Notes under the pieces: generated by a model
Told to the model about the DNA's origin: nothing
What the model saw: only the letters and a program-made list of their open reading frames with translations
The model's database searches: none
Position numbers and translations under genes: made by a program
Source of the DNA: an uncultured delta proteobacterium
GTDB taxonomy: Bacteria; Desulfobacterota; Binatia; Binatales; Binataceae
NCBI GenBank assembly: GCA_963810495.1
Contig: CAWENP010000001.1
Coordinates: forward strand, 72,990-136,989
Reading direction: 5' to 3'
DNA: 64,000 nt
Shown here: positions 2,951-29,766 of the stretch, piece after piece
How the letters are laid out: each line of letters opens with the position of its first letter
Numbering within the stretch: the first letter of the stretch is position 1

Positions 2951-3811
2951 TCAGCGGAGCGAATCGCATGTGCTTAGCGCCTTAGTCGCGGTTCGTCGCG
3001 CGTAATCGAGCTGCCGCCTGAACGCGCCTTTTTTTGATAGGTCGCGGGCAGTCAGTATTTCGTCCCTGATTTGTTGTTCTGAGAGGCCGCGGCTTGCGGC
3101 GTATAGAGCCCACGCCATGTCAGCGCAATGCAGATCCCCGCTGTATCGAGGATCCGAGTGGAACTCAGTGAGGGGCCGTATCGAATCTTCGGTCGAAGTC
3201 CAACGTGAGATCGTCCACTCCGCGCGTTCGGCACGGGCCTTCTCTTCGAGCGATTTCACTTCCTCGAGAAATTCGCGCGCTGCGCTGTAAGAGCGGCCCT
3301 CGCATTCATGCAATCGTACGAATGGTTGGAGACCATTGCTCAAGCGCCGCTTCGGCTTCTGGTTCGTGAAACCGGCGAGCCGACCAAAGTGGCGCCAATC
3401 GGCGCTGGAAGGATCGCCTCCGAAGCGACGGGCCAATTCCTTAGCTGCTTGGGTGCTGAACGTGTGATCGGAGAGCACTCGTCCGTGGTTGACCCATACC
3501 TGAAAGTTGCCGGACGAAGTCTCTACGACGACAGCTGGCTGAAAGCCCGCCTCTTTCATCGCAGCGATCGCTTCAGCGCTGACATCATCGACCACGCTGA
3601 GAGCATGAGCGCCGTGTGGGCGGACGAAGATGTGCGCACCGTGTGCATTTTCCCGTCTGAACCAGCTGATTGCCGCGTCGACCTGCTCGGCATTCCAACG
3701 CTCGCGCAGCAACATGCGTCCGTTGCGATGAAAGATGCCAACGTCGAATCGTTGGCATCCCATCGCGGAGAGCTGCTTAGCGACGATCGATCGTGCGATT
3801 GAAGCGCTCAT
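2951..3811 (-). CDS. RepB'-type DNA primase domain protein (RSF1010 RepB' / conjugative primase family)
   Basis: C-terminal 286 aa of the 707-aa ORF: AHGAHIFVRPHGAHALSVVDDV...GFQPAVVVETSSGNFQVWVNH...GGDPSSADWRHFGRLAGFTNQKP; ATG at 3811. Confidence 0.55.
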   Translation of the reverse strand: MSASIARSIVAKQLSAMGCQRFDVGIFHRNGRMLLRERWNAEQVDAAISWFRRENAHGAHIFVRPHGAHALSVVDDVSAEAIAAMKEAGFQPAVVVETSSGNFQVWVNHGRVLSDHTFSTQAAKELARRFGGDPSSADWRHFGRLAGFTNQKPKRRLSNGLQPFVRLHECEGRSYSAAREFLEEVKSLEEKARAERAEWTISRWTSTEDSIRPLTEFHSDPRYSGDLHCADMAWALYAASRGLSEQQIRDEILTARDLSKKGAFRRQLDYARRTATKALSTCDSLR

Positions 3812-3849
3812 TGACACTGCTTTAGGCGGCGCCGTTGGCGGAGAAATTC

Positions 3850-5074
3850 CGCTCAGATTTTGCTGGTCGCTTTTCCCATCGTCGTTGTGCTGTTGCCGTT
3901 CCCATAGCGCGCTGTGCCTGGATTTATCGCCGTTGTATTTGGGGCGCGCGACGGCATGACCGACGTGCCGCGAACATCCTTGGGTGCCGGCACGCGCTGT
4001 CCGCTGTCGGGACCAAGATTGCTCAGTTGTTGCGTTTGCCGACCAAAGTCCATTGCGTTGACCCAGCCGGCGCGCTTCGCTGCTATTGCCCGCGCTGCCG
4101 CTGCCGAGTTGCGCGGCCTTGTTGAATCCGGTCTGGAGCGCGCTTGTGATCGGCCGAATGACGGTTTGAGCGATAAATGCAGCTTCGAAAGCATGGCTCA
4201 GAGCGAGGCCGACTGTGCCGCCGGCAATACTGGCCGCCATGTGTACGGAACAGCAATGCTTACGATCATGAAGACAATGGCACCCGCCGTGTAGTTGAGC
4301 ATTGCCGATACCGGTATGGCTTCCCGAACAAACTGTCGTAACGATTGAGCTGGGCGGAACTCCGTAAGTGGTCCACCAAGGCAGAGTCGCGGGAATTGGT
4401 TTGCAGGCAGCGATCAACGCGGCGCTCCATTGGTTGGCCATCTGCACTCCGATCGCCAGAACGAGATAGAAGAAGAGAAGTCTGACGCCGACACGGATGA
4501 CGTAGCCGAAGTAGCCTTCTGCTGCCGGAGCCGTGAAGCGGTTTGCGCCAAAGCCCAAGCAGGATGCACTCCACCGCCCACGACCAGATAAGATTCGATC
4601 AGGGTGAGCAGCAGCATCGCCGCCGTGATCACGAATGAGAGAAGGACGACGAAGGCGGATATGCTTTGAACGATTGCGAGCTCGAAGTTCGTCATCATGC
4701 TGGCGTTTGCCGGAGAGTTGAAAATCGTGTTGGCCATGTTGGCGCCGATATGCGAGCACGGTCTGTGGACTGAGGGCGGGTAGACCGGTGATAGATGCAC
4801 CGATGGCGGAGAAGCTCTTGAGCACAGCATTCATCCACGAGAATGCGTTGACGATCATCAAGTAGACGAACCCACCGCTCAGCACTTGTTTGATGAGCCG
4901 GCCTAGGAAATGTGGTGCGTCAAGCTGACCTTCGGCGGTGAATTGAATCCAGGTTACGAGGATGTCGATCAGCAGAAGCGCGATAAAGAGCTTGAGCGCA
5001 TAGGGTTGGATGGCAGCGCTGTAATTGAGGCCTGCGTTGTAATATTGGGCTGCAATTGCATCGAAGCCGCTCAT
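3850..5074 (-). pseudogene. trbL: TrbL/VirB6 conjugal transfer protein, reading frame switches at least twice (around 4740 and 4560)
   Basis: TrbL-like N-terminus MSGFDAIAAQYYNAGLNYSAAIQPYALKLFIALLLIDILVTW in one frame; hydrophobic continuation ELAIVQSISAFVVLLSFVITAAMLLLTLIESYLVVGGG in ORF 4414..4830; the middle of the 707-aa ORF is R/H-rich out-of-frame text. Confidence 0.5.
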
Positions 5075-5328
5075 GATTGTGGACCTCCAAAAGAAGTCTT
5101 CTTTTATGGCTGTGGCGGTGGTGCCCCGGCGTAGCGTTGAGAAAGTCGGGAAGGCCCGAGGGTGCGGGCGCGCTAAAGATCTGAGCGTGCTTGTTCTTCA
5201 GCGACCTGTCGCTGATAGAGATGCCAGACGCCGTAAAGCGACTGCGCATACTCCGATGATCGCCAAGACCAAGATCGACGGGTTCTTCTGCCTTTGATTC
5301 ATTCTCTTACGACTGCTCGCATCAATTG

Positions 5329-6048
5329 CTAAGGTTGCGGCGGCGGTGGTCGCGAGCCGCAGCAGTGCAAAGAGTCCGGAGTGCCGGCCGGCGCAGGCGC
5401 AGAGAATAATGCTTGCGCCGCAAGATTGCTTTGCACCTGATTGTTGACCTGGTTCGCCGCCGCGACGTTCTGCGAATTCATCTCGGCCATCACGAGCTGG
5501 CGGAGCATCTGAACCTGCTGTACCTGCGCGAGCGCGATTTCGTTGCTGACCTGAACCGCCTGCAGATTACCTATCGCCGTTTGGTTCTTGAGCTCAAGGG
5601 TTTGCAGCGTGGCTTGTTCGGCCTGGAAGTTCTGGGCCTGCGCCTGCGCTGAAGCGAGCGCACCGTTGAGCGTGTTCAGCGTGGTATCGATCGTCGTTTG
5701 CGGACTCTGGACTCCTGCGGTCGAGGCAGCGTTGAAGCCCGGATAGAGTTGCTGGAACTGCTGCGTCAGGCCCTGAAAGGTGTACGAAAGCCCTTCCTGC
5801 TGATTGATCAGATTGCCGAGGTTCGTGAGCAGATTCTGGTTCGACTGCCAGACCCCTGCGCCGCCGCCGGTCGTGTTCTTGATCGCGTACTGAAGTTGCT
5901 GCGCGAGGTTCGTGACGGTAGCGGTTTCCTGCTGAAGCTGCTGGAGCTGGCGGGCGAACATATTCGGGTCGAAGACAATCTGCGTGCCGCCTCCGAACTG
6001 GGCGCGGGCAGGAACGGACCTTCCGAACAGACAAACCAACGCGGCCAC
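5329..6048 (-). CDS. trbJ: TrbJ/VirB5-like conjugal transfer protein; the signal-peptide N-terminus (MKCTK.. at 6088) is in a different frame, implying a frameshift near an A-run
   Basis: IVFDPNMFARQLQQLQQETATVTNLAQQLQ and a Q/N-rich coiled coil typical of TrbJ; upstream in-frame text reads KALAHFLAIVAALVCLFGRSVPARAQ (signal peptide) but hits a stop at 6085. Confidence 0.65.
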   Translation of the reverse strand: MAALVCLFGRSVPARAQFGGGTQIVFDPNMFARQLQQLQQETATVTNLAQQLQYAIKNTTGGGAGVWQSNQNLLTNLGNLINQQEGLSYTFQGLTQQFQQLYPGFNAASTAGVQSPQTTIDTTLNTLNGALASAQAQAQNFQAEQATLQTLELKNQTAIGNLQAVQVSNEIALAQVQQVQMLRQLVMAEMNSQNVAAANQVNNQVQSNLAAQALFSAPAPAGTPDSLHCCGSRPPPPQP

Positions 6049-6268
6049 GATCGCGAGGAAATGCGCGAGAGCTTTTCGTGCACTTCATTGATGTATCTCC
6101 CTTTGATTGAGCTTCCCGTTGGTATGGAACGGAATTCCCGTTCACTCCGATGATCGCTTCTAACGGGCGTCTCGACATGACCGTGGAGTTTGTCGAGGTA
6201 CTCCGCCCAGTCGTGCAATCCGCGCGCGCGAAGCCATTCGACGGTCCAGCGATCGCCGTGCTGTTCGA

Positions 6269-8500
6269 TCATCCGTCGCGCGGCGAGTACATCGTCCTTC
6301 GATCCCGCGCCGATAAAGGCGAGCGCCGCAGGACCGAGCGAGAACTGGAACAGCCGCCGCCCGAGCGGCGAAACGTAATAGTAGTGCCGCTTGGGAGTGG
6401 CATCGGCGACGATGTCGATCTGCCGATCGGAAAGTCCGAATCGTCGGTACATCTCCGGCTCGCGGTGTTCTTCGCCTCGGGATTCGGCAGATAGAGCTTC
6501 GTCGGACAGGACTCGAGAATCACGTCGCGATGAGGCGAATTGGCAATTTCGCTCAGGCTCTGCGTCGCGAGCACCACCGCGGCGTTCTTCTTGCGCAGCG
6601 TGCGAAGCCACTCCTCGATCTTCGCGCCAAAGACGCTGTTGGTGAGCATGATCCACGCTTCATCGAGGATGATGAGCGTGGGTCTGCCGTCGAGGCGCTG
6701 ATCGATGCGGTGGAAGAGATAAGTGGCGACGGGCACGACGACCTTCGGCCCCATCGCCATCAACGTTTCGAGCTCGAAGGTGACGAAGCGCCCTTCGAGC
6801 AGAACGTCATGGTCGGCGTCAAGGAAGCGCCCGAGCGGACCCGCGAGCGAAAAGGCGCTCAGCCCGTCGCGCACGACATTGTCCTGCACCTGGGTGACGA
6901 GGTTGCTGATGGTGCGCTGCTCCGGCGGACCTTCCGCGACCAGTTCAAGCGCGCGCCACAGCGCCTTGCGCTGATTCGGAACGAGTCGAACGCCCTGAAG
7001 TTCGAGCCAGTCTTCGAGCAGTCCCTGCAGCTTCATCCGGTCGGTCTCGTCGTCGATGCGCGCGAGCGGTTGCAGCGGAACCTCGTCCTCTCCGAGATCG
7101 AGATGCTGTCCGCCGAGAGCCTTGGTCAGAACGTAGGCAGAGTAGCCCTTGTCGAAGAAGAAGACCTGCCCGTCAGGAACTGCACGGAAGTTCGCCGCGA
7201 TCGTGCCGAGCGCGACGCTCTTGCCGCTCCCCGTTGGACCGTAGATGCCGGTATGACCGGTATCGCCAACATGCAGGTTTAGCCGGAAGGGCGTGCTGCC
7301 CGTGGTCGCGCCGTAGCAAAGCGCCGGCGTGTTCTTCGGATAGTAGGGGCACGGGTTGGTCGCGAGCCCCGCCCAGATGCTCGTTAGCGGCAGAATGTCG
7401 GCGAGGTTCTGAGTGTTAACCAGCGGGCGGCGCACGTCGTACCAGCCGTGTCCCGGGAGCGAACCGAGCCACGCTTCGACTGCGTTGATGGTTTCGATGC
7501 GCGGATCGAAGCCCATGTTCTGGCAGACCTTGAAGACCAGCTGCGCGTTCTCATCGGCAACGTCGGCCCGGTCTTCGGTGATGATCACCTTTGGCGTGAC
7601 GTAGCAATATCGAACCGCGCCGCCCTCGGCCTCGGTGATCGCCTCGTCGGCGTCAGCCGCCATCTTGAGCGCATGCTGGTTCTGAAAAGCTGCTCCCGCG
7701 CCGGAGCCGAAATGTTCGCTGATGATGCCGCGCAGTCCGAGTCGCTTCTGGAACCAGTTGCGCCGATACACGGTCAGCTGGCTGATCGCCGTCCGCGGGC
7801 CTACGGGAATCCCGCGCGTTGAGTAGCGATAAGAGATCGGCAGTTCGCTCAGGAACGCGGCCATCTCCGCGTAGGAGAAGGGCGGGAACCCGGCCAGCGC
7901 GACGACGCGGATGTGCCTGCCGCCGATGCGCGGTTTGAATCCCGCGATCAAATCCTGATTGCCGAGAACCGCGTCCAGATAGGTTGGCGTTCTCGGCGCG
8001 GCGATTTCGCACATCCGCCCGTTGATGCAGCTCGCGAGATGCGAAAGCAAAGCATCCATCCGGAGCGGAGTCAGTTTCCAGACCGGGCTGATCGCATCTT
8101 CAAACTCGCGGAGTCTCTGCTTGAACCATCCGAGCTGTCGCCGCCAGTCGGCACGCTTCGGCGTGCCCGAGAGGAAGACGCCGGCGATCCGCGTTTGCGC
8201 GTCGGCCGGCGGGCGATACGTGATCGTGAGAACGCATCTTGTCTCGAAGTGCTGGCCCTCCTCCGAATATTGAATCTCCCGCTCGCGATCGAGCGTCGCG
8301 CTGACCGGATCGGGAAACGTTCGGCTCGGGTATTCAACGCTCGGATGACGGATGAGGTCGACGTTGTACATGAAGCCGTCGTCCAGACGCGCAAGTGCGC
8401 GATTGGCCTGCGCGCGATGGGCGTCGAGTTCTTCGACGCTCGCAGAATTGAGGTCGAGCCCCGAGCACTCGAAGGCCGACAGGAACGCGCCGTCCTTCAT
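6269..8500 (-). CDS. trbE: TrbE/VirB4 conjugal transfer ATPase; N-terminus (8501-8606) and C-terminus (~6164-6480) lie in other frames, so at least 2 frameshifts
   Basis: Walker A GPTGSGKS; MFLKEFKDLRRKRDKLLGLPDQLNYAIP (TrbE N-terminus) in ORF 8334..8606; C-terminal ATPKRHYYYVSPLGRRLF...WLRARGLHDWAEYL in ORF 5808..6656. Confidence 0.75.
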   Translation of the reverse strand: MKDGAFLSAFECSGLDLNSASVEELDAHRAQANRALARLDDGFMYNVDLIRHPSVEYPSRTFPDPVSATLDREREIQYSEEGQHFETRCVLTITYRPPADAQTRIAGVFLSGTPKRADWRRQLGWFKQRLREFEDAISPVWKLTPLRMDALLSHLASCINGRMCEIAAPRTPTYLDAVLGNQDLIAGFKPRIGGRHIRVVALAGFPPFSYAEMAAFLSELPISYRYSTRGIPVGPRTAISQLTVYRRNWFQKRLGLRGIISEHFGSGAGAAFQNQHALKMAADADEAITEAEGGAVRYCYVTPKVIITEDRADVADENAQLVFKVCQNMGFDPRIETINAVEAWLGSLPGHGWYDVRRPLVNTQNLADILPLTSIWAGLATNPCPYYPKNTPALCYGATTGSTPFRLNLHVGDTGHTGIYGPTGSGKSVALGTIAANFRAVPDGQVFFFDKGYSAYVLTKALGGQHLDLGEDEVPLQPLARIDDETDRMKLQGLLEDWLELQGVRLVPNQRKALWRALELVAEGPPEQRTISNLVTQVQDNVVRDGLSAFSLAGPLGRFLDADHDVLLEGRFVTFELETLMAMGPKVVVPVATYLFHRIDQRLDGRPTLIILDEAWIMLTNSVFGAKIEEWLRTLRKKNAAVVLATQSLSEIANSPHRDVILESCPTKLYLPNPEAKNTASRRCTDDSDFPIGRSTSSPMPLPSGTTITFRRSGGGCSSSRSVLRRSPLSARDRRTMYSPRDG

Positions 8501-8624
8501 CGCGATTGTGTAGTCGTCGATCGGGAATTGCGTAGTTGAGCTGGTCGGGCAGCCCGAGCAGCTTGTCGCGCTTTCGTCTTAAATCCTTGAACTCTTTGAG
8601 AAACATATTCCCACCTCTCCACCA

Positions 8625-8966
8625 TTACGCGCGCATCTCCTTCGGTGTCGGTACAGACGGCCGGATTCGGGGTGGCGACGCAGAGATTGAGGCGCGAGCC
8701 GGATAGTAGTCCTGGTAGCGGACGTGCCGGACGTAGACCCGGCTGAGCTGGGGATCGAACTTCGCCGCCTGAACCAGCGCCCAATGCCCGACCGTCAGCA
8801 GGAACGCTCCCATGGCGATCGTGTACCAGTGGAGTCCGCCGCCAAGGATCAAGGCGGCGGCGGTGATCCAGTTTGCGATCGCCAGAGGACGTTCCGCTCC
8901 CGCCAGAAGAATTGGCTGGGTGAGCGATTGATGAATCGCGCTTACCCGCCGCTCGCTTTCCGCCAT
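8625..8966 (-). CDS. trbD: TrbD/VirB3 conjugal transfer protein
   Basis: 113-aa membrane protein between TrbC and TrbE; LLAGAERPLAIANWITAAALIL is VirB3-like. Confidence 0.65.
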   Translation of the reverse strand: MAESERRVSAIHQSLTQPILLAGAERPLAIANWITAAALILGGGLHWYTIAMGAFLLTVGHWALVQAAKFDPQLSRVYVRHVRYQDYYPARASISASPPRIRPSVPTPKEMRA

Positions 8967-8979
8967 CGGCCCATCCTCC

Positions 8980-9363
8980 CTAAAAGAGCGCTCCGCCGAG
9001 CGGAAACAGCGTCGTCATCAGCTGCGTCGCGCCCAGCGCGCACGAGCCGCCGAAGGCGAGCGACGACATCTTCCGCACGCCGGTTCCGTGTTCGCTGACC
9101 GACCACATGATCCCGGTACCGATGATCGCGGCGGTGGTGATCGCGTGAGCGACCGGACCCTGCAGGTCGTTCTGCAGAGTCGTGAGTGGCGCGTCCCACG
9201 GCAGTGCGCCGCCAGCCACCGCGGCGAACGCTCGCGCAGGCCAGGCAACGGTCAGAACGCCGAAGGCGTACGTGACCATTGATGCCCACTTTGCCAACAA
9301 ACCTTTCATCTCTTTCAAACGCTTCATTTTGCGAACCTCCTTGGTTGATTGAATAAACCTCAA
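8980..9363 (-). CDS. trbC: TrbC/VirB2 pilin
   Basis: Small protein with signal peptide and two hydrophobic segments, immediately downstream of trbB and overlapping its stop. Confidence 0.65.
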   Translation of the reverse strand: MRFIQSTKEVRKMKRLKEMKGLLAKWASMVTYAFGVLTVAWPARAFAAVAGGALPWDAPLTTLQNDLQGPVAHAITTAAIIGTGIMWSVSEHGTGVRKMSSLAFGGSCALGATQLMTTLFPLGGALF

Positions 9364-10265
9364 GCTCTGATGGCTTCGAGTCCTTGATCCGGCTTCACTG
9401 GGGTTAGTGAGAATCCGTCGCCCGCGTTGTATCCGGCGACGCGGACAAGTTCCGTGACTCGTCGTCCTGCAGGCGTGCGGACGATGAAGACGAGCAGATT
9501 GATCGTTTCGGCGATTAGCTCTGGCTGAGGCGGAACGCCGGCCTCCTGCACAAGGCTCGAAAGCCTCGTCAGCGCGGCCTTCGCGCTGTTGGCGTGGATC
9601 GTCGTAACGCCTCCCGGATGGCCGGTGTTCCAGGCTTTCAGCAACGCGAGAGCTTCCGCGCCGCGCACCTCGCCGATGATGATGCGATCGGGGCGAAGCC
9701 GCATCGTCGTCCGGACGAGACGCGTCATATCGGCGCTTTCAGCCGTGTGAAGTTGAGCGAGATTATGGGCGCGGCACTGGATTTCGAGGGTGTCTTCGAT
9801 AATCACGTAGCGTTCGTTCGGGTCGGAGCGCTCGACCATTTCATTGATCATCGCGCCGGCAAGCGTCGTCTTGCCGGAGCCGGTGCCTCCGGCGACGACG
9901 ATATTCAGACGCTGGTCAATTGCTTCGCGCAAAACCTCGGCATGTGTCTTGTCGAGAATGCCATCGCGAATGTAATCGTCGAGCGTGTAAAGCACATGCG
10001 CAGGCTTGCGCATCACGCAGCAGGGCTTTCTTGCGACTGGTGGTAGGAGGCCTTCGAAGCGAATGCCATCGATTAGCAGTTCACCCTCTATGATCGGACT
10101 GTTCGTGTTCGCCACGGTTCCAAGCGACGCCGCGACGGTTCCGATAAGGCTCTCGACCTGCGAGGCTGCGAGCCGCAGGCCGGCTTCGTGCATACCTTTG
10201 CCGTAGGATTCGAACCAGACGCGGCCGTCCTCGTTGATGATGATCTCGGTGATCTGCGGGATCGC
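9360..10265 (-). CDS. trbB: TrbB/VirB11 conjugal transfer ATPase; first ~25 codons missing (in-frame stop at 10266), suggesting an N-terminal frameshift
   Basis: Walker [12 protein letters not shown]; RFEGLLPP...[12 protein letters not shown]; upstream in-frame [18 protein letters not shown] matches TrbB but ends at a stop codon. Confidence 0.75.
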
Positions 10266-10346
10266 CTATCGCCGCCAGAATTCTTGTCCCGAGTTGGCGT
10301 CTGAGGAGTTCGTCCAGGCGTCGTTCCTGAAGCTGCTGCGCCGAAA

Positions 10347-10791
10347 TCATGCCGACTCTCCGTTCCGGCTCGCGCCGCTCTTCGGCGCTGGCGCTGACTG
10401 TTCCATCCGTTTCAGCGTCTCCTCGACCTCTGCGCGCCATCCGCGATGGCGGCGCTGGCCGGAAGCGAGGGCTTGCTTGCGTTGCGCTTCGGGGATTTCC
10501 GCCAGATGGCTCAACATGCTCAGAGCGAACTGATCGATCATGGCAAGCAGCGTGGTGAGCTGGTGGGCGACCGGTTTCAGGGTTTCCGCACGCGGAAACA
10601 CGACTGGCCTGGATGATTCGCTTTTCAGCTGAGGCGAGCGCGGCGTCCGAGAAAGTCAGCCCCGAACCGCCATCAGCTTGAAAGAGACGCTCCTTCACGT
10701 ATCGCGACAGCGTGATGCCGCGCTCGTCGGCTTCGTCGCGCAGCCGATGAAATTCTTCTTCGCTCAGGTAAGCGGTGAGTTGTCGCCTCAC
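10347..10791 (-). CDS. ribbon-helix-helix (CopG-family) protein of the transfer operon; body continues in a second frame (frameshift ~10580-10605)
   Basis: MRRQLTAYLSEEEFHRLRDEADERGITLSRYVKERL (RHH) in one frame; plausible continuation KPVAHQLTTLLAMIDQFALSMLSHLAEIPEAQRKQ in ORF 10347..10601. Confidence 0.45.
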
Positions 10792-11022
10792 AGTAGTCTC
10801 TCCTTGGCGTCCTGGCTGCTCGCCCTATCGTCGGAGCCGTCTTTGTTTTCGATAGCGAATCTAAGGAACGAGAGTTGCTTGCCGGGTTGCGATTTTGCGG
10901 CGGGTTCCTTCGCAGCAATCACCGCCGGCGCGAGCGTCTCGGGAATGGTCGTTGCGCCTTCGCTCTGCGGCTCGACTTGTGCGACGGTCTCGACCTCCGG
11001 CTCTTTGTCGCGCTCGATTCGA

Positions 11023-12885
11023 TCACTCGCGTCGGGCGGCTTGATTGCCGACAGCCGTCTGAAGTACCGCTGCTTGTGGTATGTGAGCAACGGCGCTCGG
11101 ATGGGGTGCTGGCCGCGCGCGAAAATCAGCACCTCGTCCACGGCCATGCATCGCGCCTCGTCCGGGGTCATCAAGGGCCGCGCCCGTCTCCGGTTCCGAG
11201 ATGCTGGCGCCGCCCCCGGATTGTGTGCGATACGCGTGGCGAACGCTGGTCTGGCCGACCAGCCGGGAAATCTCTTCGGCACTGTCGATGTTGTTGGGCG
11301 TGAACCTGACCATGCTGTCGCAGTTGTCGGTGATCGACTCGTTGGTGCCGTAAAACTTGTAGATCTGGCTCAGGCTCTGCACCGCCAGGCAGGCACGCAC
11401 GCCGAATCCGGCCATGTGGCTCATCGCCTCGGCAAACGGCTCGAAGTGCTGGAGCAAGGCGAACTCGTCGAGCATCAGGAGCATCGGGCGGCGGTGCGGC
11501 GACACGGGGCGGCCGTCTTTGTACGCGAGCTTTGCCGTCAGCCGCCCAACGATCTGATTGATCATCAGTCTCATCAGGGGCCTGAGCCGGTTGCGGTGTT
11601 CGTGAGGCACGTTCAGGTAGAGCGATGCCGGGTGCTGGTGATTAACAAGATCATCGATCCTGAACTCTGAATACTCGGTTGCGGCGGCAATGAGCGGGTC
11701 GCGGTACAGCGGCAGCCGCCTGACTACTTCGCCCACCACGCCGCTTCGCTCTTTTTCGGCTTTGTTCAGCACCTCTCTCATGCTCTCGGCGACGCTCGGA
11801 TGGGTACGAGTCGGCTCGCCGCGCGAGGTCCGCCAGCCCATCGCCCCGGCAGGATCGTGCTCCGCCGTCATCATCCGGTTGATGGTCTCGTCGATGGGCG
11901 AGGATGGATCGCTCAAAAGCCCGACGAGGCCGCGCAGAGTCTTGGCTGGCTCGACATACAGGATGTGGAGGATGGCTCCGGTTAGGAGCGCCATACCGGC
12001 CGCGACCCAGTAATTGTCGTTTCCGAAGCCGCGGCCATCGGGGTCGACCAGCATCTGCACGATGTTCTGCACGTCGGCGGTTTCATACGGGGTCCTGAGG
12101 CGCACCTCTTCCAGCGGGTTGTACTTGACGCCGGGATCGTCCGGATTGGTCGGATTGAATCTGAAGCACAGATGGCCCATCCGTTTGCGCGCCCCGGCGG
12201 TCACCTTCCAGAGTTCTTCCTTGAAGTCGTGGACGAGCGCCGAGTGTCGCCACGTGAGCAGGGTTGGAACCATCGTGTTGACGCCCTTGCCGGCGCGGGT
12301 CGGCGCCTCGATCAGGACGTGTCCGGGGCCGCAGTCGCGCAGATAATGGAGTCTGCCGTGAACGCGCCACGCGCCCAGATAGATTCCGTCGCGAGGTTCG
12401 AGCGGCTTGAGCTTGCCCGCGTGTTCCAGCCGTTCGGCGAAGCCAGCGCGGCAGGTAACTCGGCGGAGCCAGGAACCCGGTCGCGCGCACGTCGCGTGTG
12501 TTGGCCCATCGCGCCGAACCATGCAGGTCGGGCGTGCTATCGGCGAGCCACCACGCGCGAGGTTGATTGCGCCCGCCGCGATCGCGGCGGCCACGAGCAA
12601 CGGTAGCGCCGCCTCGCGCGCGCACAGATCCCAAACCGGTTGCAGCTGCATCGCGCCGTGCCATCGCGTCCACCAGACGATCCATTCCCATGGAGCGTAT
12701 AACCTGCCGGCAAGATTTGGCCCGAGCGCCCGCGCATAACCAAGCATCCGCGCGGCGCGCTCTGTCACCCACCAGTTGATGACCAGCGCCGCCGCCGCGA
12801 AGCTCGCTACGCTGATGAACTTGACCTGGTCGAGGCGCGCCTTCGCGGACCTGTTCGCGACCCGGTAGGGACGATATTCCGCCAT
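11023..12885 (-). CDS. traG: TraG/VirD4 type IV coupling protein; the conserved HGSARWA motif sits in an alternate frame (12487-12538), implying two compensating frameshifts
   Basis: IYLGAWRVHGRLHYLRDCGPGHVLIEAPTRAGKGVNTMVPTLLTW and LLMLDEFALL in the main frame; TPDLHGSARWANTRDVRATGFLAP in ORF 12083..12772. Confidence 0.8.
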   Translation of the reverse strand: MAEYRPYRVANRSAKARLDQVKFISVASFAAAALVINWWVTERAARMLGYARALGPNLAGRLYAPWEWIVWWTRWHGAMQLQPVWDLCAREAALPLLVAAAIAAGAINLARGGSPIARPTCMVRRDGPTHATCARPGSWLRRVTCRAGFAERLEHAGKLKPLEPRDGIYLGAWRVHGRLHYLRDCGPGHVLIEAPTRAGKGVNTMVPTLLTWRHSALVHDFKEELWKVTAGARKRMGHLCFRFNPTNPDDPGVKYNPLEEVRLRTPYETADVQNIVQMLVDPDGRGFGNDNYWVAAGMALLTGAILHILYVEPAKTLRGLVGLLSDPSSPIDETINRMMTAEHDPAGAMGWRTSRGEPTRTHPSVAESMREVLNKAEKERSGVVGEVVRRLPLYRDPLIAAATEYSEFRIDDLVNHQHPASLYLNVPHEHRNRLRPLMRLMINQIVGRLTAKLAYKDGRPVSPHRRPMLLMLDEFALLQHFEPFAEAMSHMAGFGVRACLAVQSLSQIYKFYGTNESITDNCDSMVRFTPNNIDSAEEISRLVGQTSVRHAYRTQSGGGASISEPETGAALDDPGRGAMHGRGRGADFRARPAPHPSAVAHIPQAAVLQTAVGNQAARRE

Positions 12886-12890
12886 GACGA

Positions 12891-13901
12891 CTACCTCTCC
12901 AGCCCGCGCTCTACGCTCATTTGCCGCTGGCGGTCGCGGGCGCGGGTCTTGATCACGTCATTGGATTGCTGGCGGTCGCGAAGCTCGCGCTCATGGTTTT
13001 CGGAAAGCTGCCATGACCGTTCGTCGATCCGCTGCGCCAGTCCGAGCCCGGTGAGGTAATTGAGCCGATCTATCTCCTGCTCGGCTCGAATCCGAGGCCC
13101 CTCATTGAGTGGTTGGAACTGGTCGTATGTGACGATGCCGTTCGCATCAGCCTTTCTCTGCAAGGCGCGGTCGATCTCGGTCCACTGCTCGCGTCTGACC
13201 ACGCGTTCACGTGCCCGCAGCATCTCCGGCTCCAGACGCGGACCCAGTTCGCGCGTCGCGATCTCCTGGCTGCGGATACGAATGCCCGAGCGCAAATACT
13301 CGCGGTTGATCTCCAGTGGCCTGCCATTCTCCCGAACGCCACGGACCAGCAGATGAACATGCGCGTCGTCCGTGTTGTGATGATCGATCGCGACCCACTC
13401 CAACTTTGTGTCGAGGTCGCGTCCCATCCGACTAACCAGTTCCCGCACATGTTCGCGAAGGTTTAGACGGTCCGCGTCTTCGGGGGACACAATGAAGCGC
13501 CACATCAGCTCGTCGCTCTTTTCCCAGTCTCTGACTGTGGCGAGCATGTCGATTTCCTCGCGCTCCGCGTCGAACCCCAACCCCTTGGCAAATTCCTGTT
13601 GAGCGCCGGGGCGCGCGAGGTAGCGAGCGTGCGCTGCCCACGCACCGCTGCGGCGGTTGCGCGAGAATGACGCCTTGACCACGCTGCGCCGCGCGTATGC
13701 CGGTGGTTCTGAGACGCGAACTCGCGCCGCGCGCATCCCGCTCAGACTTCCGCTCGGCTGCTGATGGCGGAGACCCCGTCGCATGCCCATCCGCCCCAGT
13801 GCGCGCGCCCACCACGGCACGAGTTTGCGCGGACGCTCCGCATGCTCGTGGCGAAGCTTGATATCCACCTCCCTCTGTCGCAGGAACCTAGGCCGTTTCA
13901 T
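12891..13901 (-). CDS. conjugative relaxase (HUH relaxase/mobilisation nuclease, VirD2-like, DUF3363-type N-terminus); 336 aa, possibly C-terminally short
   Basis: AHARYLARPG...LEWVAIDHHNTDDAHVHLLVRG (HUH motif)...REYLRSGIRIRSQEIATRELGP; directly upstream of traG. Confidence 0.7.
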   Translation of the reverse strand: MKRPRFLRQREVDIKLRHEHAERPRKLVPWWARALGRMGMRRGLRHQQPSGSLSGMRAARVRVSEPPAYARRSVVKASFSRNRRSGAWAAHARYLARPGAQQEFAKGLGFDAEREEIDMLATVRDWEKSDELMWRFIVSPEDADRLNLREHVRELVSRMGRDLDTKLEWVAIDHHNTDDAHVHLLVRGVRENGRPLEINREYLRSGIRIRSQEIATRELGPRLEPEMLRARERVVRREQWTEIDRALQRKADANGIVTYDQFQPLNEGPRIRAEQEIDRLNYLTGLGLAQRIDERSWQLSENHERELRDRQQSNDVIKTRARDRQRQMSVERGLER

Positions 13902-14298
13902 CGCACACCTCGGTCAATGCCTCGCTGAGGGCTAGTACCAGCTTGGTCGGATTCTCCGGTGTCTGTCCGCCAAGCGCCTCGATGATCTCGCGCACCTGCC
14001 CGCTGCTGAGCGTGATCGCATGGAGATCCTGTGCGCGCCGCCATGACTTCCACGCGCGCTTGCCGGTCGCCCGTTCGTCGAGTTTCTTGCGCCCGATTGT
14101 CGCAACGAGTGCGCGCTGCGAAGTCGTAAGTTTGGTGGCTTCCTGCGCGACGCTCAGTAATGCGCCCAGCAAAAAGTCCGGCGGCTCCAGATCGAGCCCC
14201 GCCAGTGCGATCAGTCCACCGAGGTTGGCGAGATGATGCACACGGAGCCCTTGCTCAGGGCTGTGACTGTCGCCATTGCCGTTACCGTTGCTGCTCAT
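13888..14298 (-). CDS. hypothetical protein between traF and relaxase (candidate relaxosome accessory protein)
   Basis: ATG at 14298, 5 nt after the traF stop; 136 aa MSSNGNGNG...; no recognisable motif. Confidence 0.4.
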   Translation of the reverse strand: MSSNGNGNGDSHSPEQGLRVHHLANLGGLIALAGLDLEPPDFLLGALLSVAQEATKLTTSQRALVATIGRKKLDERATGKRAWKSWRRAQDLHAITLSSGQVREIIEALGGQTPENPTKLVLALSEALTEVCDETA

Positions 14299-14303
14299 GG
14301 CAT

Positions 14304-14909
14304 TCACCACACGACGACCGGTTTGATCTCGCCGCGTACGTTGGCGAGCGGAACCGGGCCGAAGTAGCGCGAGTCCCAACTCCGGCGATCGTTAAAACCG
14401 AACAACCACACCTGGCCAACCGCGACTCGATGGCTGCCCCACGCGACATGAGGAAGTGGACGGCCCGCGCTGTCGTGCGTTGCGACGGCGCAGCGTTTGA
14501 AACGCACGCCGTTGACTGCGACCCATCCGGGTTGGATCACGACAACGTCCCCGGCAAGAGCGCCTACGATCTTGCCAACCGGCTCCGCGTTACCAACGCA
14601 CGCGCCGGTGCGCAGATATCCGTGGGCCAGACCTTCCTGGGCGAGCGCAATCGGCAGGCAGGCAACGACCAGATCGCCACGTTGGAATTTCCCGGAGACA
14701 ACGCGATAGACCCCGACGGGAGCGGCACTGTCGGTGTCCGAAATCAGCACGCCGAACGCATTGCCGACCGCGATCAGGACCGCTACTGCAATCGCAATTC
14801 CGGCCATCGCCCCGATGGGTCCGCGCGCACCTTCCAGACGCTGTAAATGCAGGCGCTGAGCAAGCGATCCGGCGGGGTTTTCTGCCGTGCTGCACAGTGT
14901 GCCGCTCAT
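14304..14909 (-). CDS. traF: TraF-type conjugative signal peptidase (S26 family)
   Basis: Signal-peptidase I-like WDSRYFGP motif; N-terminal TM segment; position next to the relaxase as in Ti/ICE tra modules. Confidence 0.7.
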   Translation of the reverse strand: MSGTLCSTAENPAGSLAQRLHLQRLEGARGPIGAMAGIAIAVAVLIAVGNAFGVLISDTDSAAPVGVYRVVSGKFQRGDLVVACLPIALAQEGLAHGYLRTGACVGNAEPVGKIVGALAGDVVVIQPGWVAVNGVRFKRCAVATHDSAGRPLPHVAWGSHRVAVGQVWLFGFNDRRSWDSRYFGPVPLANVRGEIKPVVVW

Positions 14910-15087
14910 GACCGCCTCCGAGGGGGAAAGGCCGCGAGTTCGTTGGAGAATCCGCCGAAAATGCCGCGCCGTACCGCAGGTCCTTTATCTTGCTCTACGA
15001 ACGACCGGCCTTCCCCCCTCTCCAACTCGACCTCCAAATCCCCTCTTTCCGCGCGCCGCAAAGCGGCGGAGAAATTCCCGAAAATCC

Positions 15088-15333
15088 TCACTGCACTTTC
15101 TCCGCAGAAGGCTCGCTTGCGCGGCCATTCAGTTTCCGGCCCGGACGAGGCGCACCTTCGAGCTCGGCCTTGATCTGTTTGCAGAGCCGCCACATCGCCG
15201 CCGTAATCGTCTCGCCCAGATCGAAGCCGGCGTCTTCGGCCCGGCTGCGTAGTTGGTCGATCTCCCGTTTGAGCGCAGCTGGCAGCTTGAAGGTGATCGC
15301 TTCGCTTTCCTGTTTGCGTTTGAGAACTCCCAT
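15088..15333 (-). CDS. small ribbon-helix-helix-like DNA-binding protein
   Basis: 81 aa MGVLKRKQESEAITFKLPAALKREIDQLRSRAEDAGFDLGETITAAMWRL (beta-strand, two helices); ATG at 15333. Confidence 0.4.
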   Translation of the reverse strand: MGVLKRKQESEAITFKLPAALKREIDQLRSRAEDAGFDLGETITAAMWRLCKQIKAELEGAPRPGRKLNGRASEPSAEKVQ

Positions 15334-15365
15334 CGCACTTCTCCTTGAAAAATTGGATTGCGGAT

Positions 15366-16502
15366 TTACTTCCCGTAGGGGCCGGGGAATACGAGGTCCT
15401 GGGTGATCATCACGTCGAACTGATAGCCCGGCCGGATTTCGATCGTTGGCGGCCGATTCAATCCCTGCCCCATCATCTGCTGACCCAGCGCACCGAATTG
15501 TCCCGAGGCGGCTGAACCCGCCGTCTGGCTCGCCATCGCCCACTGATTCGGTTGGTAGTAACCGTACGGTCCGTATGTGCCACCGCCTCCGAGCGTCGCC
15601 ATCTGGCCGACCGCCTGTCCGGCGCTGATCAGGCTCATCACGGCGGCAGTTCCAAACGTTGCAAGGTAATGGTGGTCGACCTGATCGGAGAAGCCGGCGT
15701 AACCGCTCTGATCGGCCCCCGGCATCATTGGCAGATTCATGCTGGCGGTGTTGGGAAAGATGAGACGCTGCCACGCGATCTGAACGCGCTGCTGGCCGTA
15801 TGAAGACGCGTTCTGATAGGCGCCGATGAGGCGACTCCCCTGCGGGATCAGAACCGATCTGCCGGTCGCGCTGTCGAGAACGTTCTGGCTGACCTGCGCG
15901 AGAATCGGTCCGGGCAGATCCGAATTGATGCCGCTGATCAGGACTGCCGGAAGAATGCTTCCCGCCATCACCGTATACGGCGAAGCTGCGGGATGAACGC
16001 TTATCGCCGGGTTGTTCTGATCACCGGAAATATACGAGTCGGCCTGTTGTCCTTTAGCGCTCGCGATCTCGAGTGTTCCGCCACTATGAAACGCCTGCAC
16101 CATCTCCGGCGATTCGAGCGCCTTCATGTACTTCTCTTCGGCCCATTGCGCATACCGGCTGGGAGGCTTCGGCGCGCTCGGCTGAACCGGCGCCTGGGAG
16201 ATCGGCAGGGCCGGTATCGGCATGACCGTCGGTGCCGCGTGGGGCAGTGCGCCATGAGCCGCGAGGTCCTCGATTTCGCCGCGATCTCGGGCTGCCGAGC
16301 CTGGGTCATCCGCCAATTTCTGGGAAGCGGAACTTTGACTGTTTCCCGAGGACTGGACACCGAGTGCAAGCGCCACTCCTCCGACCATCGCGACCGCGAC
16401 GAAAACAACGCCGAGAAGGCGATTGAACCGGCCGCCCCCGAGGTGCTCCTGTTCCTGCTCTTCCTGTTCCTGAATCACTTCTGCGGTTGCCATGGCTGTC
16501 AC
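15366..16502 (-). CDS. trbI: TrbI/VirB10 conjugal transfer protein
   Basis: N-terminal TM, Pro-rich linker, C-terminal IPQGSRLIGAY...RVQIAWQRLIFPN...GYQFDVMITQDLVF (VirB10 signature). Confidence 0.8.
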   Translation of the reverse strand: MTAMATAEVIQEQEEQEQEHLGGGRFNRLLGVVFVAVAMVGGVALALGVQSSGNSQSSASQKLADDPGSAARDRGEIEDLAAHGALPHAAPTVMPIPALPISQAPVQPSAPKPPSRYAQWAEEKYMKALESPEMVQAFHSGGTLEIASAKGQQADSYISGDQNNPAISVHPAASPYTVMAGSILPAVLISGINSDLPGPILAQVSQNVLDSATGRSVLIPQGSRLIGAYQNASSYGQQRVQIAWQRLIFPNTASMNLPMMPGADQSGYAGFSDQVDHHYLATFGTAAVMSLISAGQAVGQMATLGGGGTYGPYGYYQPNQWAMASQTAGSAASGQFGALGQQMMGQGLNRPPTIEIRPGYQFDVMITQDLVFPGPYGK

Positions 16503-17446
16503 CTCGCTCCGCCCGCATAGGAGATGGTCACGCGGTCCTGATCGCGGCCGACGCCCGAGACCAAAATCGCGTCGCTGAAGAGCCGGTCGACGACGTAGTA
16601 ATTTCCCTTGACCCGGTAGTTCACCATCTGGGTTCCGCTGCCTGCGTTGATGAGCAGCGCGGGAGCTTCGCTCGACTTCATTCCGGCCGGCATCTGCACA
16701 TACACGTGAGAGCCGTCATCGAAGGCACGAATCGGCTTCCACGGAATGTTTGGCCCTGCGACGGTGTAGGCGAAGTTGAGCTGTGCCGGATCGACCGCTG
16801 CGACCTTCACGACGTTGTCGGAATCACCCGGCGGATCGACCGCTTCCTGCTTGGCCCTCGATGCGGCTGCGTCGGTAGCTTCCATCGCCGTGGTCAGCTC
16901 CTCGGGGTAGTAGAACTCCACCTCCTGCATCGCGCGTCCGCGCGACCGGAGCAGCAGGTGGTAAATGTGCTTCGTCGTGTAGATCGTCAGGTTGGTTTCG
17001 ATACCGGGAATCTGCGGCTTCACCGCCAGGTGAGGGACGGCATTGCGCGGGTCGCCAGAGGCGGCCGGCGTCGCCATCCAGCGTTCCGTATCTCCCAGCG
17101 CAACATCGGTAATCGTCTCTCCCGGCTGCAGCTGGATGTCGGTGGTGCGCAGTGGCGCGCAATCGACCGCCGGCTCCGGTTTTTGGTTGTAGGGATAGAG
17201 CGTGTACTCGGCCGTTCGGTAGACCGGCCATTTGCCGCCTTGCTGATGCTCCTTGATCGCAGCCTGCACCTCGGCTGGCTGCTGGGCGAGCAGTTGCGCT
17301 CCGGTCGGCGGTGGTGGCGTCGCGGACGACTCCGCCGGGGCCTCTGTTACGATTTTCAGTGGCGGCGGCGTGGATGCTTGTTGCTGACTCGCGCATGCAC
17401 TCAAGAAGAGTGCGAACGTCATCGTGGCAGCTGCCATAAGCTTCAT
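16499..17446 (-). CDS. trbG: TrbG/VirB9 conjugal transfer protein
   Basis: Signal peptide/lipobox (LSACAS), VirB9-like beta-rich body; overlaps the trbI start by 4 nt. Confidence 0.8.
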   Translation of the reverse strand: MKLMAAATMTFALFLSACASQQQASTPPPLKIVTEAPAESSATPPPPTGAQLLAQQPAEVQAAIKEHQQGGKWPVYRTAEYTLYPYNQKPEPAVDCAPLRTTDIQLQPGETITDVALGDTERWMATPAASGDPRNAVPHLAVKPQIPGIETNLTIYTTKHIYHLLLRSRGRAMQEVEFYYPEELTTAMEATDAAASRAKQEAVDPPGDSDNVVKVAAVDPAQLNFAYTVAGPNIPWKPIRAFDDGSHVYVQMPAGMKSSEAPALLINAGSGTQMVNYRVKGNYYVVDRLFSDAILVSGVGRDQDRVTISYAGGAR

Positions 17447-17470
17447 CGCTCTTCCTCCCTTGTGGCCGGA

Positions 17471-18139: not shown

Positions 18140-18330
18140 ACGACGAACACTCCTCGGACGGCCCAGTGACGGCCCGTCCTCTGTCCGTAGATTGTCCGCA
18201 CTTTGTCCGAGAACTCTTCGCGACAGGTTCCAAAAGACCCCGAAGCGAAGTGCGCGAAATCTTGATATTTATTGGGGATTCTCGGTTTGGCTTGGAGCCT
18301 GTGGCAGCATGGAACCGAATGGCATTCAGG

Positions 18331-21635: not shown

Positions 21636-21697
21636 ACCCCCCGTCGCCGTCTGTTCAAATACAGACAAGCAGCGGGCAGATTCTAAGGAAGACAAAC

Positions 21698-28509: not shown

Positions 28510-28608
28510 AGCCGGCCTCGATCGCGCTCGCGCAATGACGGCCGCCGCGGACGGATTTTTTCCGAAGCTCATGGTCCGGTTCCTCAAGTGACGCGGGCCT
28601 CCCACGAA

Positions 28609-29582: not shown

Positions 29583-29766
29583 CTTTCGCGACCGCGGTCG
29601 GTATCGGTGCGGCGCTGAGTCAAACCATCGCCGGAGCCATCGTTCATCATTTCGGCGATCGGGCCGGATTCTTGTTCCTGGCCTCCGTGGCCGCAGCGGC
29701 CCTGCTGATGTTGTGGTTGTTTATGCCTGAAACCCTCAAATGAAAGGCGGCCGTAGATGTTACTGG

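What the first reader, a model, noticed from the sequence alone, without database searches (positions are those of the whole stretch)
12435..12545. TraG: the conserved HGSARWA motif is encoded in an alternate frame
The 620-aa traG frame reads SPIARPTCMVRRDGPTHATCARPGSWLRRVTCRAGFAERLEHAG at this point. The overlapping frame (ORF 12083..12772) reads STPDLHGSARWANTRDVRATGFLAP over the same DNA, which matches the universally conserved VirD4/TraG motif at the expected distance upstream of IYLGAW...APTRAGKG. This requires two compensating indels within ~90 nt.
Basis: seen in the sequence. Interest (0 to 1): 0.5.

Follow-up and report, generated by a model that had tools for sequence, protein, structure and literature searches.

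The report
Single-base indels scramble a traG gene
The conjugation coupling-protein gene traG really does carry its conserved HGSARWA motif in another reading frame, but this is one of about fifteen single-base insertions or deletions scattered over the mobile-element half of the window. They look like assembly errors, or less likely very recent gene decay, and not a new coding mechanism.

Summary
On the minus strand, the traG/virD4 gene (12885 to 10788) leaves its frame for 40 codons (12553 to 12433). That stretch reads WWLADSTPDLHGSARWANTRDVRATGFLAPPSYLPRWLRR in the alternate frame.

This is 40/40 identical to an intact 698-aa TraG on a nearly identical contig (ENA ERZ25039507 contig_3535). 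The cause is a 1-nt deletion between 12554 and 12553 and a 1-nt insertion at 12432, about 121 nt apart rather than about 90.

It puts the last ~130 codons into a third frame, so the "620-aa traG" is a truncation artefact.

The same kind of lesion hits the 147-aa ORF after traG ("h147"), virB11, virB4, trbJ, trbL, a 299-aa ORF, a porin, an MFS transporter and one chromosomal VWA gene.

Against the near-identical contig, with a more distant homologue as outgroup, the window's lineage has 5 indels but only 7 substitutions in 9.2 kb, and none in traG. The indels are not in homopolymers.

- Best explanation: consensus indel errors in an error-prone assembly, about 0.65.
- Rival: genuine, very recent decay of the conjugative element, about 0.3.
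- Programmed recoding is not supported.

Interest is low.

The parts
10788..12885 (-). Complete traG/virD4 (type IV coupling protein) gene. It is 698 codons plus a stop once three single-base indels are corrected. As written it is split into a 620-aa ORF (11023..12885) and a 164-aa ORF (10788..11282).
   Evidence: tblastn of the 698-aa homologues gives two pieces in different frames. The corrected protein is 90.5% identical to P0001 and P0002 and differs at 3 residues from L015 TraG. Pfam PF02534, PF12696 and PF10412 all match.
12553..12554 (-). Site of the 1-nt deletion (first frameshift). On the minus strand the window reads CTCGCGCG^TGGTGG. Homologues have CGC or CGA (Arg) here, and L015 has an A.
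   Evidence: DNA alignments. The change is window-derived with L001 as outgroup.
12433..12553 (-). The 40-codon stretch that is out of frame relative to the ATG at 12885. In its own frame it encodes WWLADSTPDLHGSARWANTRDVRATGFLAPPSYLPRWLRR, the conserved post-TM2 motif region.
   Evidence: 40/40 identical to L015 TraG. The motif is conserved in 116/120 homologues.
12432..12432 (-). The 1-nt insertion (second frameshift) that restores the original frame. On the minus strand the window reads GCCGAA[C]GGCTGG; L015 reads GCCGAA-GGCTGG.
   Evidence: Window-derived.
11182..11182 (-). Third, uncompensated 1-nt insertion. On the minus strand the window reads GACGGG[C]GCGGCC; L015 reads GACGGG-GCGGCC.
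   Evidence: The metagenome relative L019 also has the shorter form.
10788..11181 (-). C-terminal ~130 codons of traG, now in a third frame (...GRPLMTPDEARCMAVDEVLIFARGQHPIRAPLL...).
   Evidence: The 164-aa ORF matches PF02534 profile positions 409-449. tblastn gives a second piece, 11183..10791.
10592..10592 (-). 1-nt insertion that frameshifts h147, the 147-aa ORF downstream of traG.
10261..10261 (-). 1-nt insertion that frameshifts virB11/trbB (T2SSE ATPase).
6456..8527 (-). virB4/trbE carrying two single-base frameshifts: an insertion near 8521-8527 and a deletion at 6456.
   Evidence: tblastn shows three pieces in two frames. DNA alignments agree.
2951..5074 (-). A 707-aa ORF that is an artefactual fusion. 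trbL is frameshifted near 4074 and reads through into a RepB-primase-like gene.
   Evidence: Pfam TrbL and RepB_primase both match within one ORF. tblastn of the 404-aa TrbL proteins of L015 and L019 is split between two frames.

Best explanation
**What the gene is.** It is an ordinary traG/virD4 type IV coupling protein of a Trb/VirB-type conjugative element. The gene order on the minus strand is virB8-virB9-virB10-traF-traD-relaxase-traG-virB11-trbC-virB3-virB4-trbJ-trbL, followed by a RepB-like primase and ArdC. The element sits in a contig whose chromosomal genes resemble Candidatus Binataceae.

**What the sequence says.** As written, it carries three single-base indels: -1 at 12554/12553, +1 at 12432 and +1 at 11182. 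The first two cancel, so a long ORF survives with 40 scrambled codons where the HGSARWA motif should be. The third moves the C-terminus into another frame.

**Most likely cause.** These indels, and about a dozen like them in neighbouring genes, are consensus errors of an error-prone (long-read-type) assembly. They are concentrated in a mobile-element region that was probably covered thinly or heterogeneously. On this reading the organism's real traG is the intact 698-aa gene seen on ENA ERZ25039507 contig_3535.

**Shown versus inferred.** The positions and nature of the indels, the intact near-identical copy, the excess of indels over substitutions and the spread to unrelated genes are shown. 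That the indels arose in sequencing or assembly rather than in the cell is inferred.
For: 1. A nearly identical independent contig is intact.
   - L015 encodes proteins 100% identical to the window's relaxase, TraD, TraF and the 81-aa ORF, and more than 99% identical for VirB9, VirB10, VirB11 and TrbC.
   - It also has intact TraG (698 aa), h147 and VirB11 (329 aa).
   - Window 9-17 kb differs from it by 0-11 mismatches per kb, yet carries the indels.
2. Polarised with L001 as outgroup, window 8980-18145 has 5 window-derived single-base indels against only 7 window-derived substitutions.
   - None of those substitutions lies in traG, and all three amino-acid differences in TraG are derived in L015.
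   - Bacterial mutation-accumulation studies give roughly 6-10 substitutions per indel (my knowledge), so neutral decay predicts far more substitutions. My binomial estimate for 5 or more indels among 12 events at p = 1/7 is about 0.02.
3. The ratio of lineage-specific nonsynonymous to synonymous codon changes in traG is 0.37. This equals the values for the intact homologues (0.37 and 0.53).
4. Almost all the indels are insertions or deletions of a base unlike its neighbours, not homopolymer slippage, and insertions are as common as deletions. That is atypical of spontaneous bacterial indels and of the deletional bias seen in pseudogenes (my knowledge).
5. Unrelated genes are hit by the same lesion type.
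   - Porin_O_P profile positions 4-110 and 295-370 fall in different frames.
   - An MFS transporter is split between frames.
   - A conserved chromosomal VWA gene has homologues that are single 527-531-aa proteins at up to 97% identity.
6. Related elements in Nanopore-only Microflora Danica MAGs (L006 and L007; the assembly method is in PMC12313526) are also riddled with frameshifts. Database protein P0007 has the same kind of out-of-frame TraG C-terminus.
Against: - The indel density is very uneven: at least 15 in 0-31 kb but only one in 31-64 kb.
  - Ten genes at 32.7-47.5 kb have end-to-end domain architectures.
  - In 50-64 kb, 14 of the 15 homologue proteins compared align in a single frame (the last gene is cut by the window end), and only the VWA gene is split.
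- Even within the near-identical part of the element, all five coding indels fall in 10.26-12.55 kb and none in the coding sequences between 12.9 and 18.1 kb. A uniform error rate does not predict this. Decay confined to a dead mobile element would explain the island-versus-chromosome contrast naturally.
- The origin and sequencing technology of the window are unknown, and no reads can be inspected.
- Non-homopolymer insertions are not the classic Nanopore error either.
- The window lineage also shows real-looking substitutions near 18.3-19.7 kb (8 in 1.3 kb).
Confidence: 0.65

Rival explanations
1. The indels are real. The conjugative element, with neighbouring cargo genes, is a recently immobilised, decaying island, and traG, h147, virB11, virB4, trbL, the porin and the MFS gene are true pseudogenes. 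The compensating pair in traG is a chance juxtaposition of two neutral indels.
For: - Frameshifts are more than 10 times denser in 0-31 kb, the mobile-element and low-GC side, than in the chromosomal 31-64 kb. This is what relaxed selection on a dead element predicts.
- All three T4SS ATPase genes are disabled.
- The window also has a 1.2-kb deletion at 19654|19655 relative to both L015 and L018, and window-specific substitutions nearby, which are real-looking differences.
- Decayed integrative elements are common (my knowledge).
Against: - There are no window-derived amino-acid replacements and no nonsense codons in traG despite three frameshifts.
- The window lineage shows 5 indels against 7 substitutions over 9.2 kb.
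- The nonsynonymous-to-synonymous ratio is unchanged relative to intact homologues.
- The indels are not homopolymer-associated and show no deletion bias.
- A conserved chromosomal gene (VWA) carries the same lesion.
- No independent assembly with the same indels was found.
Confidence: 0.3
2. Programmed recoding: the ribosome or RNA polymerase shifts frame at 12554/12553 and back at 12432 (and at 11182), so a full-length TraG is made from the sequence as written.
For: Only that the two shifts in the N-terminal region are compensating and that the alternate-frame peptide is perfectly conserved.
Against: - None of the homologues whose DNA was read has a frameshift at any of the three sites (L001, L005 and L015; L019 for 11182 only), and the 698-aa homologues are single ORFs. 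This includes the near-identical L015.
- 116 of 120 homologues carry the motif in frame.
- There is no slippery heptamer or known +1 shift signal at CUCGCGCGUGGUGG, CGCCGAACGGCUGG or GACGGGCGCGGCC (read directly).
- The same lesions occur in at least eight other, unrelated genes.
Confidence: 0.01
3. The 620-aa main-frame product is a genuine variant coupling protein, or a regulatory truncated form, that has replaced the HGSARWA region and its C-terminus.
For: A long ORF with an ATG, both transmembrane segments, Walker A (APTRAGKG) and Walker B (LLMLDEF) survives.
Against: - The replaced 40 residues and the last 46 residues have no homologue support.
- The lost C-terminus includes conserved PF02534 and TraG-D_C positions, which reappear in the other frame.
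- The partner genes virB4 and virB11 are disrupted too.
Confidence: 0.02

Closest known systems
TraG/VirD4 type IV coupling proteins (Pfam PF02534 T4SS-DNA_transf; NCBIfam NF010450 IncP-type TraG and NF010453 TraG)
   Same: After frame correction the protein is 698 aa. It has two N-terminal hydrophobic segments, the HGSARWA motif just after the second, Walker A APTRAGKG, Walker B LLMLDEF and a TraG-D_C domain. It lies directly downstream of a relaxase inside a VirB/Trb T4SS cluster. Its closest relatives are 698-aa proteins at 90.5% identity, and a near-identical one sits on ERZ25039507 contig_3535.
   Different: Scores are below the curated cut-offs of the IncP and Ti subfamily models (453 against 674 bits), so it is a divergent branch rather than an IncP or Ti TraG equivalog. 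As written in the window, the gene is interrupted by three single-base indels.
Indel (frameshift) errors in long-read-only genome and metagenome assemblies
   Same: - The lesions are single-base indels that split or scramble ORFs.
- They are absent from a near-identical independent contig.
- Indels are in excess over substitutions.
- Several unrelated genes are affected.
- Related contigs come from Flye/Medaka Nanopore metagenomes, in which residual indel errors are acknowledged (PMC12313526, PMC9262707).
   Different: The errors here are not homopolymer-linked and are strongly clustered in one half of the window. The technology behind the window is not known to me.
Pseudogenised (decaying) integrative conjugative elements
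   Same: There are multiple disabling frameshifts in transfer genes and neighbouring cargo, while the chromosomal genes nearby are intact.
   Different: There is no excess of amino-acid replacements, no nonsense codons in traG, no deletion bias and no homopolymer context. The divergence from an intact copy is only about 0.1%.

Membership tests
TraG/VirD4 type IV coupling protein (PF02534) | Significant match to the family profile over the nucleotide-binding and all-alpha domains | tested here: met
   For PF02534, the as-written ORF scores 240 bits (profile positions 36-394). The corrected protein scores 277 bits (profile 32-451). PF12696 and PF10412 also match.
TraG/VirD4 type IV coupling protein (PF02534) | Conserved [HY]G[ST]A.[WF] motif in frame just after the second N-terminal hydrophobic segment | tested here: not met
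   The motif is not in the frame of the annotatable 620-aa ORF. It is present only in the alternate frame (12553..12433) and is restored by undoing two 1-nt indels. It is in frame in 116/120 homologues.
TraG/VirD4 type IV coupling protein (PF02534) | Walker A and Walker B NTPase motifs | tested here: met
   APTRAGKGV and PMLLMLDEF are read directly in the main frame.
TraG/VirD4 type IV coupling protein (PF02534) | Genomic context with a relaxase and a T4SS mating-pair-formation cluster | tested here: met
   The relaxase lies immediately upstream. virB8-10, traF, traD, virB11, trbC, virB3, virB4, trbJ and trbL are all in the cluster.
IncP-type TraG (NCBIfam NF010450) / Ti-type TraG (TIGR02767) | Whole-protein score above the curated cut-off | tested here: not met
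   Scores are 453 bits against a cut-off of 674, and 70 bits against 686.
Programmed ribosomal frameshifting | Frameshift conserved in homologues, and a slippery or shift-prone site at the junction | tested here: not met
   The homologues whose DNA was read, and the near-identical L015, are single ORFs. No slippery heptamer is present at any of the three sites.
Assembly/sequencing indel artefact | Indels absent from an independent, near-identical sequence, and indels in excess over substitutions | tested here: met
   L015 lacks all of them. The window lineage has 5 indels against 7 substitutions in 9.2 kb, with 0 substitutions in traG.
Assembly/sequencing indel artefact | Lesions spread over unrelated genes of the same assembly | tested here: met
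   The porin, the MFS transporter, the VWA gene, h147, virB11, virB4, trbL and the 299-aa ORF are affected. The density is very uneven, however.
Assembly/sequencing indel artefact | Weak or mixed read support at the indel positions | not testable with these tools
   No reads and no source accession are available. The exact-protein look-up did not return the source contig.
Genuine pseudogene of a decaying mobile element | Relaxed selection (raised nonsynonymous rate, nonsense codons, larger deletions) accompanying the frameshifts | tested here: not met
   The nonsynonymous-to-synonymous ratio is 0.37, the same as in intact homologues. There are no stops in the corrected frame and no window-derived replacements in traG.
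Genuine pseudogene of a decaying mobile element | Same lesions seen in an independent assembly or sample | tested here: inconclusive
   No contig with the same indels was found. Near-identical relatives are very few, so absence is weak evidence.

The most novel reading that the evidence does not exclude
The indels are real and reflect an island-specific, indel-rich mutational process. One example would be error-prone repair after repeated host defence nicking or cleavage of a newly acquired conjugative element. Such a process would have disabled all three T4SS ATPase genes within about 0.1% sequence divergence from an intact copy, in an uncultured Binataceae-like host.
Probability: 0.04. Interest if true: 0.6.

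Novelty: not a real feature. Interest (0 to 1): 0.1.

Why it matters
The value is mainly practical. Anyone annotating this contig would call a 620-aa "TraG" that lacks its conserved motif and C-terminus, a TrbL-primase "fusion protein", and several split genes. All of these are most likely products of single-base consensus errors.

The intact 698-aa sequence is recoverable from the window by undoing three indels, and it matches an independent contig.

If the indels were shown to be real, the locus would be a clean snapshot of the very first steps of inactivation of a conjugative element. That is of modest interest, because decaying integrative elements are well known.

Tried and rejected
- **Plasmid collection.** Megablast of traG found no match, so it gave no annotated reference.
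- **Pfam on the alternate-frame ORF alone.** No hit. The motif region lies outside the locally aligned part of PF02534, so Pfam could not adjudicate the frame. NCBIfam full-length TraG models and direct homologue alignments did.
- **Finding the source.**
  - The exact-protein look-up of the 620-aa ORF and of a chromosomal 543-aa ORF found nothing on record, and PPK2 likewise.
  - The genome-contig scan returned only more distant relatives.
  - The source assembly and its technology therefore remain unknown.
- **Metagenome pattern scans across indel sites.**
  - The first scan found nothing. In hindsight its flank differed from L015 by one base.
  - The second found one roughly 80% relative carrying the intact form.
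- **A motif shared by the indel sites** (methylation motifs such as GATC or GANTC, or homopolymers). No consistent pattern emerged. Two insertions create GATC and one deletion lies in GAATC, which I judged to be coincidence.
- **Codon-usage Viterbi frame tracing**. It found the uncompensated shifts but was too coarse to see the 40-codon compensated one, so compensated pairs elsewhere could be undercounted.
- **Supplementary tables of the Microflora Danica paper.** They are not held, so ERZ25039507, ERZ25039590 and ERZ25039467 could not be tied to that project.
- **Not run.** Structure prediction and fold search, because the family assignment was never in doubt.
Full report
**1. The observation**

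On the minus strand the window has a 620-aa ORF (11023..12885). It matches the TraG/VirD4 coupling-protein families PF02534, PF12696 and PF10412. Between "AINLAR" and "LEHAGKLKPL" this frame reads GGSPIARPTCMVRRDGPTHATCARPGSWLRRVTCRAGFAER. The overlapping frame reads WWLADSTPDLHGSARWANTRDVRATGFLAPPSYLPRWLRR.

**2. Which frame is the homologous one**

A database search returned thousands of relatives. The closest are 698 aa long. At this point they read AINLARWWLNDSTPDLHGSARWENTRDVRATGFLAPPSYLPRWLRRRLERAGKLKPL, which is the alternate-frame peptide.

The motif [HY]G[ST]A.[WF] is in frame in 116 of the 120 best homologues. Three of the exceptions are partial proteins, and the fourth carries HGSARLM.

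DNA alignment with two intact homologues at about 90% nucleotide identity (L001 and L005) shows exactly three single-base differences in length:
- one base missing between 12554 and 12553;
- one extra base at 12432-12434;
- one extra base at 11181-11182.

Undoing them gives a 698-aa protein with no stop codon that is 90.5% identical to both homologues.

With the NCBIfam IncP-type TraG model, the corrected protein aligns over residues 21-627 (453 bits). The ORF as written aligns only over residues 162-553 (400 bits). Pfam PF02534 rises from 240 to 277 bits, and TraG-D_C now aligns over 1-124 of 126 profile positions instead of 1-95.

The stretch is 40 codons (12553..12433, about 121 nt), not about 90 nt.

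**3.

The third indel, at 11182, is not compensated. The last ~130 codons of traG, including GRPLMTPDEARCMAVDEVLIFARGQHPIRA, lie in the 164-aa ORF 10788..11282, which matches PF02534 profile positions 409-449. The "620-aa TraG" therefore ends in 46 residues of out-of-frame sequence.

**4. traG is not special**

Comparing the whole transfer cluster with intact relatives (L001, L015, L019) shows further single-base frameshifts:
- h147, the 147-aa ORF after traG, at 10592;
- virB11, at 10261;
- virB4, at about 8521-8527 and at 6456;
- the trbJ start region, at about 6065-6132;
- trbL, at about 4074;
- a 299-aa ORF, at 19058 and 19084.

The trbL shift makes the gene read through into a RepB-primase-like gene, giving a spurious 707-aa ORF.

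Outside the cluster:
- A phosphate-porin gene is split, with Porin_O_P profile positions 4-110 and 295-370 in different frames.
- An MFS transporter is split over frames.
- A conserved chromosomal VWA gene is shifted near 60933. Its homologues are single 527-531-aa proteins at up to 97% identity.

With 7 indels in the 6.1 kb from 6456 to 12554, the chance that some adjacent pair lies within 120 nt is about 0.58 (my calculation), and any adjacent pair cancels about half the time. The compensating pair needs no special explanation.

**5. A near-identical intact copy**

An exact-protein look-up with the intact relaxase found ENA ERZ25039507 contig_3535 (L015). It aligns to window 2883-19815. In window 9-17 kb there are only 0-11 mismatches per kb, and 0 and 2 in the two 1-kb bins from 11000 to 12999, which cover most of traG.

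Its relaxase, TraD, TraF and 81-aa protein are 100% identical to the window's. Its TraG (698 aa), h147 and VirB11 (329 aa) are intact. The 40 alternate-frame residues are 40/40 identical to L015 TraG.

Using L001 as outgroup for window 8980-18145:
- The window lineage has 5 single-base indels and 7 substitutions.
- None of those substitutions is in traG.
- L015 accounts for 30 substitutions and for all three amino-acid differences in TraG.

The ratio of lineage-specific nonsynonymous to synonymous codon changes in traG is 0.37, against 0.37 and 0.53 in the intact homologues.

The indels are almost all a base inserted or removed between unlike neighbours, for example GGG^GCGG to GGGCGCGG and CGA^CCC to CGATCCC. 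Insertions are about as frequent as deletions.

**6. Interpretation**

The following features are what consensus errors of an error-prone, long-read-type assembly look like:
- the excess of indels over substitutions;
- the absence of replacement or nonsense changes;
- the non-slippage contexts;
- the lack of deletion bias;
- the involvement of unrelated genes;
- the intact near-identical copy.

They are not what neutral decay looks like. From my knowledge of mutation-accumulation and pseudogene studies, neutral decay would bring roughly 6-10 substitutions per indel, mostly homopolymer indels and a deletion bias.

Related contigs carry Flye-style names. The related elements L006 and L007 come from a Microflora Danica Nanopore-only MAG, assembled with Flye and one round of Medaka (PMC12313526). 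They are also full of frameshifts, at different positions in two copies that are 96.6% identical. Database protein P0007 has a similar out-of-frame TraG C-terminus.

I put this explanation at about 0.65.

**7. The main rival**

The indels are very unevenly spread:
- There are at least 15 in 0-31 kb.
- There is one in 31-64 kb.
- Ten genes between 32.7 and 47.5 kb have complete domain architectures.
- In 50-64 kb, 14 of the 15 homologue proteins compared align in a single frame (the last gene is cut by the window end), and only the VWA gene is split.
- Even within the part nearly identical to L015, the coding indels cluster at 10.26-12.55 kb, and none lies in the coding sequences between 12.9 and 18.1 kb.

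A dead mobile element that is decaying would explain the island-versus-chromosome contrast directly. The artefact reading must assume thin or heterogeneous read support over the element. That is plausible for an element carried by a subpopulation or present as several variants, but it is untested.

The window also has real-looking differences. It lacks 1.2 kb at 19654|19655 that both L015 and L018 have, and it has 8 window-specific substitutions in 18.3-19.7 kb.

I give real, very recent decay about 0.3.

Programmed frameshifting is excluded for practical purposes. None of the homologues whose DNA was read shares a shift, there is no slippery site, and the same lesions occur in many unrelated genes.

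**8. What it is compared with what is known**

After correction, the gene is an ordinary member of the TraG/VirD4 coupling-protein family. It has the motif after the second hydrophobic segment, Walker A and Walker B motifs, a TraG-D_C domain, and the expected neighbours: a relaxase and a VirB/Trb cluster.

It does not reach the curated cut-offs of the IncP or Ti TraG models. It is therefore a divergent branch, shared with soil MAGs labelled Xanthobacteraceae, Binataceae and others.

The only solved structure detectable by sequence is the Helicobacter Cag5 VirD4-like protein, 8dol.

**9. Verdict**

- The biological significance is low. Most likely this is not a real feature of the organism. Otherwise it is a commonplace pseudogene.
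- Read pile-ups at the listed positions would settle the matter.

Noticed in passing
window 11182 (minus strand), ORF 10788..11282: A third, uncompensated 1-nt insertion in traG places the C-terminal ~130 codons in a separate 164-aa ORF. The 620-aa ORF therefore ends in 46 out-of-frame residues.
   Followed up: yes
window 2951..5074 (minus strand): A 707-aa ORF combines a TrbL/VirB6 match and a RepB-primase match. Comparison with the 404-aa TrbL proteins of L015 and L019 shows a frameshift near 4074 that fuses trbL to the downstream primase-like gene.
   Followed up: yes
window ~28600..29400 and ~29760..30700 (minus strand): A phosphate-selective porin (Porin_O_P) and an MFS transporter are each split over two or three reading frames, which implies at least two frameshifts in each.
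   Followed up: partly
window ~60933 (plus strand), ORFs 60061..61152 and 60707..61645: A conserved chromosomal VWA/CoxE-like gene is frameshifted. Its homologues are single 527-531-aa proteins at up to 97% identity, many of them labelled Candidatus Binataceae, which also suggests the host lineage.
   Followed up: yes
window 19654|19655: The window lacks a segment of about 1.2 kb, holding three small ORFs, that is present at this point in both near-identical contigs L015 and L018. There is no obvious direct repeat at the junction.
   Followed up: partly
window ~4000..9000 versus 9000..17000, relative to L015: The mosaic relationship changes sharply. There are about 80-125 mismatches per kb in 4-9 kb (virB4, trbJ, trbL) but 0-11 per kb in 9-17 kb. 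This suggests recombination between element variants, or a chimeric assembly.
   Followed up: no
window ~18318; locus L018 (ERZ25039467 contig_18519): In L018 the segment from the 299-aa ORF to the DHOR gene (window 18318-23326, more than 99% identical) is flanked by DHDPS, DAP-epimerase and cNMP-binding genes instead of the T4SS cluster. One end of the transfer module therefore lies near 18.3 kb.
   Followed up: partly
window 1376..1990 (minus strand): An ArdC-like ORF of 204 aa has a full ArdcN domain but only profile positions 12-53 of 126 of its metallopeptidase domain. This is probably another truncation.
   Followed up: no
window 23931..24866 (plus strand): A second DHOR (di-haem oxidoreductase) copy of 312 aa appears to lack the N-terminal portion present in the 495-aa copy at 21698..23185. 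The coding signal continues in the same frame to about 25590.
   Followed up: no
loci L006 and L007 (MAG MFD05705.bin.1.215), protein P0007: Two related T4SS clusters in one Nanopore MAG, 96.6% identical over 7.8 kb, each carry many frameshifts at different positions. There are five in the traG of L007. P0007 is a database TraG with an out-of-frame C-terminus like the window's.
   Followed up: partly
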